Assembly: GCA_034718095.1 (NCBI GenBank)
Contig: JAYEMK010000029.1
Span: 1 to 39,882 of the forward strand
DNA: 39,882 bases
Reading direction: 5' to 3'
Source of the DNA: Candidatus Bipolaricaulota bacterium
GTDB taxonomy: Bacteria > Bipolaricaulota > Bipolaricaulia > UBA7950 > UBA9294
In this document: piece by piece, positions 2,190 to 2,516 of the stretch
How the letters are laid out: every line of letters begins with the position of its first letter
Position numbering within the stretch: position 1 is the first letter of the stretch
Notes under the pieces: model-generated
Database searches by the model: none
What the model was told of the DNA's origin: nothing
Seen by the model: the letters and a program-made list of their open reading frames with translations, nothing else
Position numbers and translations under genes: made by a program

Positions 2190-2516
2190 GTGCAGGTGAC
2201 TATTTATTACAATCAGGAAGATCAGTATCTACTGGATCTGGTGGACCAGGAGGCCCGACAGGAGCGAAAGTCCCGCTCGGCGGCAATCCTGACTATCCTT
2301 GAGGAGCACTTCGAGCAACTGAAAAAGATCGGTGAGATCCTCGTGGATCTGGGGGCCGTCTCTCACACAGACCTATCGCGAGGGCTCGACTTACAGAAAA
2401 GCAAGTTCACGGAGAAACTGTTGGGGGACATCCTTCTCGAGGAAGGGATTGTAGGGCAACAGGCGCTGGATCAAGCGTTGATGATACAAAAAAGACAGAC
2501 ACAAACGGATGATTGA
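2190..2516 (+). CDS. small regulator: N-terminal ribbon-helix-helix (CopG/Arc-like) domain fused to an MshEN / T2SSE_N-like putative c-di-GMP-binding domain
   Basis: 108-aa ORF.
- N-terminus: VTIYYNQEDQYLLDLVDQEARQERKSRSAAILTILEEHF fits a beta-strand/helix/helix RHH pattern.
- Residues 46-69 (KIGEILVDLGAVSHTDLSRGLDLQ) and 77-100 (LLGDILLEEGIVGQQALDQALMIQ) fit the 24-residue MshEN motif RLGxx(L/V/I)(L/V/I)xxG(L/V/I)(L/V/I)xxxxLxxxLxxQ.
- Start: GTG at 2190. GTG at 2196 has better spacing to the AGGTGA at 2181-2186. Confidence 0.7.
   Translation: MQVTIYYNQEDQYLLDLVDQEARQERKSRSAAILTILEEHFEQLKKIGEILVDLGAVSHTDLSRGLDLQKSKFTEKLLGDILLEEGIVGQQALDQALMIQKRQTQTDD

What the first reader, a model, noticed from the sequence alone, without database searches (positions are those of the whole stretch)
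2190..2516. Small protein combining a ribbon-helix-helix fold with two MshEN-type c-di-GMP-binding motifs
Residues 1-43 look like a CopG/Arc-type RHH: a beta-strand VTIYYN, helix 1 QYLLDLVDQEARQ, and helix 2 SRSAAILTILEEHF.

Residues 46-100 contain two copies of the published MshEN motif RLGxx(L/V/I)(L/V/I)xxG(L/V/I)(L/V/I)xxxxLxxxLxxQ:
- KIGEILVDLGAVSHTDLSRGLDLQ matches 8 of 11 defined positions. R to K and L to I are conservative, and one position is A.
- LLGDILLEEGIVGQQALDQALMIQ matches 10 of 11. The first position is L instead of R.

The spacer is 7 residues (KSKFTEK), not the canonical 5, and both leading Arg residues are replaced, so binding is not guaranteed. MshEN domains are best known at the N-terminus of T2SS/T4P ATPases. 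A stand-alone fusion to a DNA-binding RHH would be a compact c-di-GMP-responsive transcription factor.
Basis: partly seen in the sequence, partly recalled or inferred. Interest (0 to 1): 0.65.

Follow-up and report, generated by a model that had tools for sequence, protein, structure and literature searches.

The report
Riboswitch-controlled RHH–MshEN c-di-GMP receptor protein
A 108-residue protein joins a DNA-binding ribbon-helix-helix fold to a c-di-GMP-binding MshEN module and is itself switched on by a c-di-GMP riboswitch, which points to an undescribed type of second-messenger-responsive regulator sitting next to adhesin genes in uncultivated bacteria.

Summary
The curated NCBIfam model for the MshE-type c-di-GMP motif hits residues 46-100 above its cutoff (E 5e-13). 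An AlphaFold model superposes that half on c-di-GMP-bound PilF-GSPIIB and MshE at about 1.1 Å, and the N-terminal half on Arc, CopG and CdbA. Its GSPII-B domain (KD 6 nM) has the same Lys/Leu pair at the two motif starts, and its GSPII-C domain has a 7-residue spacer.

Its 3' strand is also the 5' arm of a terminator (2105-2149), so it should act as an ON switch. This aptamer-gene linkage recurs in 65 of 80 related loci. About 51 loci carry a second aptamer just after the stop codon, ahead of adhesin-like surface proteins.

The best reading is a c-di-GMP-induced, c-di-GMP-binding RHH regulator. I found no published RHH-MshEN fusion. The DNA target was not identified, and binding to ligand or DNA is untested.

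The parts
1926..1955 (+). Sigma-70-type promoter: TTGACA at 1926-1931 and a -10 region (TATATGAT) at 1948-1955
   Evidence: It matches 11 of 12 consensus positions. The same CTTGACA-N17-TATAGT/TATAAT arrangement sits at a fixed distance before the aptamer in about 40 related loci.
1976..2120 (+). c-di-GMP-I-type riboswitch aptamer, with a window-specific insertion hairpin of about 78 nt in the P2 loop
   Evidence: Rfam clan CL00126 match, 62.9 bits, E 1e-12, full model length. The ligand-contact nucleotides are G20/A47/C92, the canonical c-di-GMP set.
2105..2149 (+). Intrinsic terminator hairpin: 5' arm GCCGGGUUGCCA at 2106-2117, 3' arm UGGCAGCCCGGU at 2133-2144, then UUUUGU. The 5' arm is the 3' strand of aptamer helices P2 and P1.
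   Evidence: The hairpin forms in the minimum-free-energy fold of 1970-2200 (z-score -6.9). The same arm-sharing layout followed by a U-tract is seen in essentially all 45 loci inspected. This is the layout of an ON switch (inferred).
2180..2185 (+). Shine-Dalgarno sequence GAGGTG, 4 nt before the GTG start
   Evidence: Read directly from the sequence. Purine-rich GGAGG/AGGAGA boxes occupy the same place in homologous loci.
2190..2516 (+). ORF of 108 aa encoding the RHH-MshEN_N protein
2190..2318 (+). Residues 1-43: ribbon-helix-helix half, with strand QVTIYY, helix 9-24 and helix 29-42
   Evidence: AlphaFold2 helices. Foldseek matches to CopG, Arc and CdbA. Weak Pfam RHH_1 and Arc hits. Q2, T4, Y6, R26, S28 and S30 are invariant or nearly so in the close family.
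2325..2396 (+). Residues 46-69: MshEN motif I (KIGEILVDLGAVSHTDLSRGLDLQ)
   Evidence: The family consensus RLGEILVDLG(V/A)(L/V/I)SHxDLxKGLELQ is fully canonical, with R in 90 and K in 30 of 121 sequences.
2397..2417 (+). Residues 70-76: 7-residue spacer KSKFTEK. F73 and K76 are nearly invariant.
   Evidence: PilF GSPII-C has the same spacer length in an ungapped alignment.
2418..2489 (+). Residues 77-100: MshEN motif II (LLGDILLEEGIVGQQALDQALMIQ)
   Evidence: L77 is invariant in the close family. Divergent members have R, K, P or L at this position.
2577..2614 (+). Stable GC-rich hairpin after the stop codon. It is a possible terminator, and the window has no second aptamer here.
   Evidence: Centroid structure. 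No Rfam hit in 2517-2760 even at E<=10.

Best explanation
The locus is a two-tier c-di-GMP sensor. A conserved promoter transcribes a c-di-GMP-I riboswitch whose aptamer and terminator compete for the same strand. When c-di-GMP is bound the terminator cannot form, and the downstream 108-aa gene is expressed (an ON switch).

[quoted passage not shown] Its helix 2 runs, after a 4-residue junction, straight into a minimal MshEN_N four-helix bundle that binds one extended c-di-GMP molecule. Ligand binding at the first turn of MshEN helix alpha1 (K46, beside the junction) is proposed to change how the sensor bundles sit on the RHH dimer, and so to change DNA affinity or higher-order assembly. That would make the protein a c-di-GMP-dependent transcription regulator.

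In most relatives the gene is followed directly by a second c-di-GMP aptamer and adhesin-like surface-protein genes. The protein is therefore most likely part of the switch to surface attachment.

Shown here: the ORF, the domain assignments, the riboswitch, the shared-arm terminator, and the conserved linkage. Inferred: ON polarity, c-di-GMP binding, DNA binding, and coupling between the two.
For: - MshEN_N assignment: NF053729 above its curated cutoff. 26 of 28 divergent representatives at 36-51% identity also hit it at E<=0.001, best 1.6e-19. Foldseek rmsd is 1.0-1.2 Å to c-di-GMP-bound 8pdk and 5htl.
- The K46/L77 pair and the 7-residue spacer both occur in experimentally validated binders.
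- RHH assignment: Foldseek matches to CopG, Arc and CdbA. The segment RKSRSAAILTILEEHF aligns in register with CopG GLSKSAMISVALENYK. The polar strand face Q2/T4/Y6 and the helix-2 N-cap S28/R29/S30 are invariant or nearly so.
- Riboswitch: Rfam hit in the window. An aptamer ends 42-71 nt before the start codon in 45 of 46 loci and in 20 of 34 further loci, including homologs only 46-54% identical.
- All 45 proximal aptamers have A47, and 43 have G20.
- The terminator shares its arm with the aptamer and is followed by a U-tract.
- A second aptamer lies after the stop codon in 38 of 41 loci of the first set. It is followed by signal-peptide proteins with DUF11, DUF7507, PKD, Big_9, cadherin-like, VWA and CshA domains.
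- In PilF GSPII-B, ligand binding unwinds the first turn of helix alpha1. In this protein that position is the RHH-MshEN junction.
Against: - No DNA target was found. The window's repeats and palindrome are not conserved, no shared palindrome lies within 260 nt upstream, and the only conserved leader motif is orientation-fixed at 12 nt before the aptamer, so it may be an RNA or transcription-start feature.
- The RHH assignment is sub-threshold by sequence, and the model is a monomer without the ribbon.
- Motif II is degenerate in the close family: L instead of R, and Gly10 is mostly Glu.
- About 13 loci carry the gene without any aptamer, and the window itself lacks the second aptamer.
- A protein that needs c-di-GMP to be made and then binds it could equally be a buffer.
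- No binding data exist.
Confidence: 0.55

Rival explanations
1. The protein is a c-di-GMP sink or buffer. It is a small, strongly induced, high-affinity binder whose RHH half serves only as a dimerisation scaffold. Once the first riboswitch opens, the protein sequesters free c-di-GMP. That gives negative feedback and sets a threshold or delay for the second aptamer and the adhesin genes.
For: The gene sits between two c-di-GMP aptamers, often only 0-50 nt before the second. It has the K/L motif-start pair of the highest-affinity MshEN domain known. No operator was found.
Against: The outward-facing strand residues Q2/T4/Y6 and the phosphate-contacting S28/R29/S30 are invariant or nearly so. 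A mere dimerisation scaffold would not need them. A riboswitch-less clade keeps the same protein.
Confidence: 0.2
2. The protein is a CdbA-like, ligand-regulated nucleoid-associated protein. It would bind many chromosomal sites with low specificity, and c-di-GMP would release it from DNA.
For: [quoted passage not shown] The CdbA structures appear among the Foldseek hits. No local operator was found.
Against: CdbA binds the ligand with the RHH body itself and has no MshEN module. Expression only at high c-di-GMP would make a protein that is released from DNA as soon as it is made.
Confidence: 0.1
3. The protein is an ordinary RHH regulator or antitoxin-like protein with a degenerate MshEN-like helical tail. 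The tail no longer binds c-di-GMP and serves oligomerisation or partner binding.
For: Motif II in the close family lacks the Arg and mostly lacks the Gly. Some MshEN domains, such as XpsE and PilF GSPII-A, have lost binding. Two divergent members have lost motif II altogether.
Against: Motif I is canonical, both Gln residues and the Leu triads are conserved, and the curated model is passed. The gene is under a c-di-GMP riboswitch in 65 of 80 loci. No toxin-like gene is adjacent in the window or in the loci examined.
Confidence: 0.1

Closest known systems
MshEN / MshEN_N c-di-GMP receptor module (V. cholerae MshE; T. thermophilus PilF GSPII-B and GSPII-C)
   Same: It has two tandem 24-residue motifs forming a four-helix bundle, it passes the curated profile, and the predicted fold superposes at about 1.1 Å. 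It shares the K/L motif starts of GSPII-B and the 7-residue spacer of GSPII-C.
   Different: There is no MshEN_C (T2SSE_N1) subdomain and no ATPase, glycosyltransferase, REC, CheX or kinase partner. The module is fused to an N-terminal RHH. That architecture is absent from the list of Wang et al. 2016 (Suppl. Table 4) and from every paper found.
CdbA of Myxococcus xanthus (RHH c-di-GMP receptor)
   Same: Both are small RHH proteins that act as c-di-GMP receptors. CdbA is the only published link between the RHH fold and c-di-GMP that I found.
   Different: [quoted passage not shown] Here a separate, dedicated MshEN_N domain would do the sensing. There is no detectable sequence relationship beyond the fold.
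Ligand-regulated RHH repressors with an appended or co-repressor site (NikR, MetJ); comparison from general knowledge, not tested here
   Same: An N-terminal RHH dimer reads DNA, and a C-terminal or adjacent ligand site sets affinity or tetramerisation. This is the 'works like' model for the protein.
   Different: The sensor fold and the ligand differ. NikR uses an ACT-like nickel domain and MetJ binds SAM on the RHH body.
c-di-GMP-responsive transcription factors built from a receptor domain plus a DNA-binding domain (e.g. PilZ-based MrkH; also VpsT, FleQ, BldD); from general knowledge and the citations
   Same: The logic is the same: the second messenger binds a transcription factor that controls surface or adhesion genes.
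   Different: None of them uses MshEN as the sensor or RHH as the DNA reader.
c-di-GMP-I riboswitches ahead of adhesin genes, singly or in tandem (e.g. the B. thuringiensis Bc2 riboswitch ahead of the collagen adhesion protein gene cap; tandem c-di-GMP-I arrays)
   Same: They share the aptamer class, terminator-based expression platforms and adhesin-type downstream genes.
   Different: Here the two aptamers are separated by an ORF that encodes a c-di-GMP receptor. Surveys of tandem riboswitches excluded arrangements with an intervening ORF.

Membership tests
MshEN_N c-di-GMP-binding module | Profile match above the curated threshold (NCBIfam NF053729, 53 positions) | tested here: met
   48.5 bits against a cutoff of 38, E 5.3e-13. 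26 of 28 divergent family representatives also match at E<=0.001.
MshEN_N c-di-GMP-binding module | Two tandem 24-residue motifs with hG backbone donors, Leu triads and a terminal Gln | tested here: met
   Motif I matches 8 of 11 strict positions and all relaxed positions. Motif II matches 10 of 11. G48, G79, Q69, Q100, L62/L66 and L93/L97 are present.
MshEN_N c-di-GMP-binding module | Guanine-stacking residue (Arg in MshE) at position 1 of each motif | tested here: inconclusive
   The residues are K46 and L77, not Arg. The same pair (K167/L196) in PilF GSPII-B gives KD 6 nM. The family mostly has R at position 46.
MshEN_N c-di-GMP-binding module | 5-residue spacer between the motifs | tested here: inconclusive
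   The spacer is 7 residues, so the canonical length is not met. PilF GSPII-C has 7 residues in an ungapped alignment and binds at about 460 nM, so the length is evidently not essential.
MshEN_N c-di-GMP-binding module | Four-helix-bundle fold | tested here: met
   AlphaFold2 helices at 47-54, 59-71, 78-84 and 90-105 with pLDDT about 90. Foldseek probability 1.00 and rmsd 1.0-1.2 Å to 8pdk and 5htl. This is a prediction, not an experiment.
MshEN_N c-di-GMP-binding module | Measured c-di-GMP binding | not testable with these tools
   Requires ITC, DRaCALA or MST.
Ribbon-helix-helix (CopG/Arc/MetJ) superfamily | Pfam RHH_1 or Arc match above the gathering score | tested here: not met
   RHH_1 scores 14.9-17.1 bits against a cutoff of 20.5. 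12 of 30 members give weak hits, best E 0.0015. A PDB hmmsearch with the N-terminal profile found no RHH.
Ribbon-helix-helix (CopG/Arc/MetJ) superfamily | Strand-helix-helix fold superposable on known RHH proteins | tested here: met
   Foldseek: CopG 1ea4 TM 0.78 and rmsd 1.5 Å over 46 columns, Arc 1baz TM 0.68, plus CdbA and AmrZ. The E-values are weak (about 1) because the domain is tiny.
Ribbon-helix-helix (CopG/Arc/MetJ) superfamily | Alternating polar/hydrophobic N-terminal strand and a Ser/Thr-rich N-cap of helix 2 for phosphate contacts | tested here: met
   The strand is Q2-T-T4-I-Y6-Y and the cap is K27-S28-R29-S30. All are invariant or nearly so. The alignment with CopG LSKSAMIS is in register.
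Ribbon-helix-helix (CopG/Arc/MetJ) superfamily | Dimerisation through the beta-ribbon, and DNA binding | not testable with these tools
   Only monomer prediction was available, and no operator was identified.
c-di-GMP-I riboswitch (RF01051 clan) | Covariance-model match plus the ligand-contact nucleotides G20, A47 and C92 | tested here: met
   62.9 bits over the full model. G20/A47/C92 were read from the alignment, and all 45 proximal aptamers have A47.
c-di-GMP-I-GGC variant (RF03167), the label Rfam assigned | G at the position equivalent to A47 (model position 37) | tested here: not met
   The window and all 45 proximal aptamers have A there. The label results from best-score competition within the Rfam clan.
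CdbA family | c-di-GMP bound by the RHH tetramer itself, and CdbA sequence homology | tested here: not met
   There is only a weak fold match (probability 0.6). CdbA has no MshEN module.

The most novel reading that the evidence does not exclude
RHH-MshEN_N proteins are a new class of c-di-GMP-dependent transcription factor. Together with the c-di-GMP ON riboswitches on either side of the gene, they would form a mixed RNA-protein feed-forward circuit: the messenger licenses synthesis of its own protein receptor, which then acts with a second aptamer to commit the cell to adhesin production. This would be the main c-di-GMP output pathway in Bipolaricaulota-like bacteria.
Probability: 0.4. Interest if true: 0.8.

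Novelty: new variant of a known kind. Interest (0 to 1): 0.66.

Why it matters
MshEN is one of the two most widespread c-di-GMP receptor modules. So far it is known to control ATPases, glycosyltransferases and signalling domains, not DNA binding. A 108-residue fusion to an RHH would be the smallest modular c-di-GMP transcription factor known, and it is easy to test in vitro.

The context is also unusual. A c-di-GMP riboswitch controls a c-di-GMP protein receptor, and the receptor gene is wedged between two aptamers. This offers a natural system for asking how RNA and protein sensors of one messenger are layered, whether as feed-forward control or as buffering.

It also gives a first handle on c-di-GMP output in an uncultivated phylum (the MAG records that are named say mostly Candidatus Bipolaricaulota). 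Its members carry many of these aptamers ahead of adhesin-like genes.

Tried and rejected
1. Operator search. The window's direct repeats TTGTCACCT(C/T)GA (1897, 1918), the TTGTCA-N3-TGACAA palindrome over the -35 element, and the 24-bp palindrome at 1852-1875 do not recur in 40+ related upstream regions.
2. Leader motif. TAGTTCAT is conserved, but it sits in one orientation at a fixed 12 nt before the aptamer (17 loci). Its reverse complement occurs before only two closely related downstream aptamers. It is therefore no evidence for a double-stranded DNA site.
3. Sequence proof of the RHH fold. Pfam is below threshold. A PDB hmmsearch with the N-terminal profile found nothing relevant. hhalign against CopG is in register but weak (probability 8.8%, E 0.004).
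4. A second aptamer after the gene in the window. None was found even at E<=10.
5. The Rfam 'GGC variant' label. It was rejected on the diagnostic nucleotide.
6. A toxin-antitoxin reading. No toxin-like neighbour is present. The neighbours are a HAD hydrolase and an S9 peptidase in the window, and mutS and adhesin genes elsewhere.
7. c-di-GMP turnover genes in the window. A crude motif scan found no GGDEF protein, so this was not pursued.
8. The paper that defined the GGC variant (Weinberg et al. 2017) could not be retrieved.
9. Dimer or ligand-bound structure modelling was not possible with the tools offered.

Full report
**Observation**

The window holds a 108-aa ORF at 2190-2516 (+) with a GTG start, preceded by GAGGTG at 2180-2185.
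- Residues 46-69 and 77-100 match the published MshEN motif at 8 of 11 and 10 of 11 defined positions.
- The spacer between them is 7 residues.
- The gene is real and conserved. There are 307 homologs at E<=1e-3, nearly all 104-111 aa and all starting MQ(T/V)TIYY.

**The C-terminal half is an MshEN_N module**

- The curated NCBIfam model NF053729 ('cyclic di-GMP-binding domain-containing protein, MshE-related', 53 positions) scores 48.5 bits against a cutoff of 38 (E 5.3e-13). The C-terminus of the c-di-GMP-activated glycosyltransferase NfrB and EpsG also match.
- A phmmer search against PDB sequences finds Thermus PilF residues 296-360 (E 3.6e-8, ungapped) and V. cholerae MshE.
- Foldseek places residues of about 45-103 on the c-di-GMP-bound PilF-GSPIIB (8pdk) and MshE (5htl) structures: rmsd 1.0-1.2 Å over 57-59 residues, probability 1.00, 33-38% identity.
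- In the close family, motif I is fully canonical: RLGEILVDLG(V/A)(L/V/I)SHxDLxKGLELQ, with R in 90 and K in 30 of 121 sequences.
- Motif II is K-LLGDILLEE(E/G)LV..EAVERAL.IQ, with L77 and K76 invariant.

PilF GSPII-B has Lys (K167) and Leu (L196) at the two motif starts and binds c-di-GMP with KD 6 nM. K167R weakens binding 25-fold, L196R weakens it 4-fold, and K167L gives 2 nM (PMC11731258). The K46/L77 pair in this protein is therefore the high-affinity combination, not a defect.

PilF GSPII-C gives the best ungapped alignment to this protein. It has a 7-residue spacer and Pro at the start of motif II, and it still binds at about 460 nM.

**The module is conserved across a deep family**

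An exhaustive profile search of 1.84 billion representatives finds roughly 45-50 clusters (at 50% identity) that cover both halves in proteins of 100-150 aa. Of 28 divergent representatives (36-51% identical), 26 hit NF053729 at E<=0.001. Their motif II starts with R, K, P or L. Two have lost motif II.

**The N-terminal half is RHH-like, on weaker evidence**

- Pfam RHH_1 is below threshold: 14.9-17.1 bits against a cutoff of 20.5. 12 of 30 members give weak hits, and Arc and FitA-like RHH appear occasionally.
- A PDB search with the N-terminal profile finds nothing.
- hhalign against CopG is in register but weak.
- The fold evidence is better: CopG 1ea4 (TM 0.78, rmsd 1.5 Å), Arc 1baz (TM 0.68), CdbA and AmrZ.
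- The residues an RHH needs for DNA contact are invariant or nearly so in the close family. These are the outward strand face Q2/T4/Y6 and the helix-2 N-cap K27-S28-R29-S30.
- I treat the RHH fold as likely, and DNA binding as inferred.

Rfam finds a c-di-GMP-I-clan aptamer at 1976-2120 (+): 62.9 bits, E 1e-12, full model length. It lies 69 nt before the start codon. Rfam's clan competition labels it 'c-di-GMP-I-GGC'. At the diagnostic position (model position 37, equivalent to Vc2 A47) the window has A, and it has G20 and C92, so the binding pocket is canonical.

The aptamer's 3' strand, GCCGGGUUGCCA (2106-2117), is also the 5' arm of a hairpin with UGGCAGCCCGGU (2133-2144), followed by UUUUGU. 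This hairpin forms in the minimum-free-energy fold (z-score -6.9). Aptamer and terminator are therefore mutually exclusive, which is the layout of an ON switch (inferred). A near-consensus promoter lies at 1926-1955.

**The linkage is conserved**

- Rfam was run on 86 related loci from genome and metagenome contigs.
- In the first 46 loci, 45 have an aptamer ending 42-71 nt (median 55) before the start codon.
- Among 34 further loci with room upstream, 20 have one ending 43-70 nt upstream. These include homologs only 46-54% identical to the window protein (tabulated by hand).
- That makes 65 of 80 loci. Many loci are related, so these are not independent events.
- All 45 proximal aptamers inspected have A47. 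43 have G20, and two have A20, the cGAMP-type signature. Essentially all show the shared-arm terminator with a U-tract and a strong Shine-Dalgarno sequence.
- The promoter CTTGACA-N17-TATAGT sits at a fixed distance upstream.
- Some loci have two aptamers in tandem before the gene (L021, L028, L033, L041).
- A clade of about 13 loci has the same protein behind a plain promoter with no aptamer.

**A second aptamer follows the gene in most relatives**

In 38 of 41 loci of the first set, and in 13 of the second, another c-di-GMP-I aptamer starts 0-100 nt after the stop codon. Only one subgroup shows a promoter in that gap, so co-transcription is likely in the others.

The genes after this second aptamer encode signal-peptide proteins. 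Some are large proteins with DUF11, DUF7507, PKD, Big_9, cadherin-like, VWA and CshA-repeat domains, and others are small secreted proteins of 130-210 aa.

The window is an exception. It has no second aptamer. A stable hairpin at 2577-2614 follows the gene, and the next gene looks like an S9 peptidase by its sequence (not checked by any profile search).

**Mechanism proposed**

High c-di-GMP opens the riboswitch, and the RHH-MshEN_N protein is made and binds c-di-GMP. In PilF GSPII-B the ligand forces the first turn of helix alpha1 to unwind. In this protein that turn (K45-K46) lies four residues after RHH helix 2, so ligand binding could reorient the sensor bundles on the RHH dimer and change DNA affinity or tetramerisation. 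This is an inference by analogy with ligand-controlled RHH repressors such as NikR and MetJ.

The genomic position suggests a role in the attachment programme.

The main rival is a c-di-GMP sink that feeds back on the second aptamer. I could not separate the two readings in silico, because no operator was found.

**Comparison with what is known**

Wang et al. 2016 list MshEN and MshEN_N fused to ATPase, glycosyltransferase, REC, HD-GYP, CheA, CheX, cyclase, kinase, AAA_31, M23 and TrxB domains, but to no DNA-binding domain. Full-text searches for MshEN together with ribbon-helix-helix or CopG return only papers on CdbA or citing it.

[quoted passage not shown] A survey of tandem riboswitches excluded arrangements with an intervening ORF.

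I therefore rate this as a new variant of a known kind: two known modules and a known riboswitch in a combination I could not find described.

**Limits**

- No binding data exist.
- Only a monomer model was available.
- Taxonomy rests on MAG titles: mostly Candidatus Bipolaricaulota, with single bins labelled Atribacteria and WOR-3, and some records untitled as to taxon.
- The window's own organism was not determined.
- The literature check covers only the held library.

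Noticed in passing
window 1976-2120: Rfam labels the aptamer 'c-di-GMP-I-GGC' (RF03167), with scores just above that family's cutoff of 59. The diagnostic nucleotide is A, not G, here and in all 45 proximal aptamers of related loci. The label looks like an artefact of best-score competition within the clan.
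   Followed up: yes
L028 2861-2948; L034 3-95: Two aptamers directly upstream of homologs have A at the G20 position (AAGAGCAAACC). This is the signature of 3'3'-cGAMP-selective GEMM-I variants. According to Wang et al. 2016, MshEN also binds cGAMP weakly.
   Followed up: partly
L047, L056, L062, L063, L065, L066, L068-L071, L076, L081, L082: A clade of the same RHH-MshEN_N family has no riboswitch at the gathering threshold. It has a plain TTGACA promoter, a short leader and a terminator hairpin after the gene.
   Followed up: partly
L004, L005, L029, L032, L034, L035, L038, L039 (stop codon to second aptamer): The second aptamer begins only 0-13 nt after the stop codon. A terminating ribosome would therefore sit on the 5' strand of P1, which might couple translation of the receptor gene to folding of the next riboswitch.
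   Followed up: no
window 1852-1875: A 24-bp near-perfect palindrome, CCTGTAACCCAT/ATAGGTTACAGG, lies about 50 nt upstream of the -35 element. It has no loop, so it is a DNA site rather than an RNA hairpin. It is not conserved in related loci.
   Followed up: partly
window 1897-1932: Direct repeats TTGTCACCT(C/T)GA lie 21 bp apart, and the second forms the palindrome TTGTCA-N3-TGACAA with the -35 hexamer. These are specific to the window.
   Followed up: partly
window 2024-2101: The aptamer's P2 loop carries an extra hairpin of about 78 nt. It contains CAGTTAGTTC, a near-copy of the leader sequence CACTTAGTTAGTTC at 1961-1974. Other loci also have P2 insertions of variable length (aptamers of 74-187 nt).
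   Followed up: no
window 6244-6327: A tRNA-Leu(CAA) gene lies between a gene that looks like an M32 carboxypeptidase (4623-6140, -; judged from its sequence, not checked) and ftsZ.
   Followed up: yes
window 6332-8680 (-); L089-L092: ORFs that look like ftsZ and ftsA by their sequence lie a few kb downstream in the window; I ran no profile search on them. In other genomes the receptor gene is divergent from mutS-rsmH-ftsL-PBP, so a loose association with the cell-division (dcw) region seems conserved. Contigs often end inside the repetitive adhesin gene.
   Followed up: no
L013 394-480; L038 137-213; L072 1654-1728; L075 4049-4778; L076 474-1368: Further c-di-GMP-I aptamers lie within a few kb of the gene, so these genomes appear unusually rich in this riboswitch class.
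   Followed up: no
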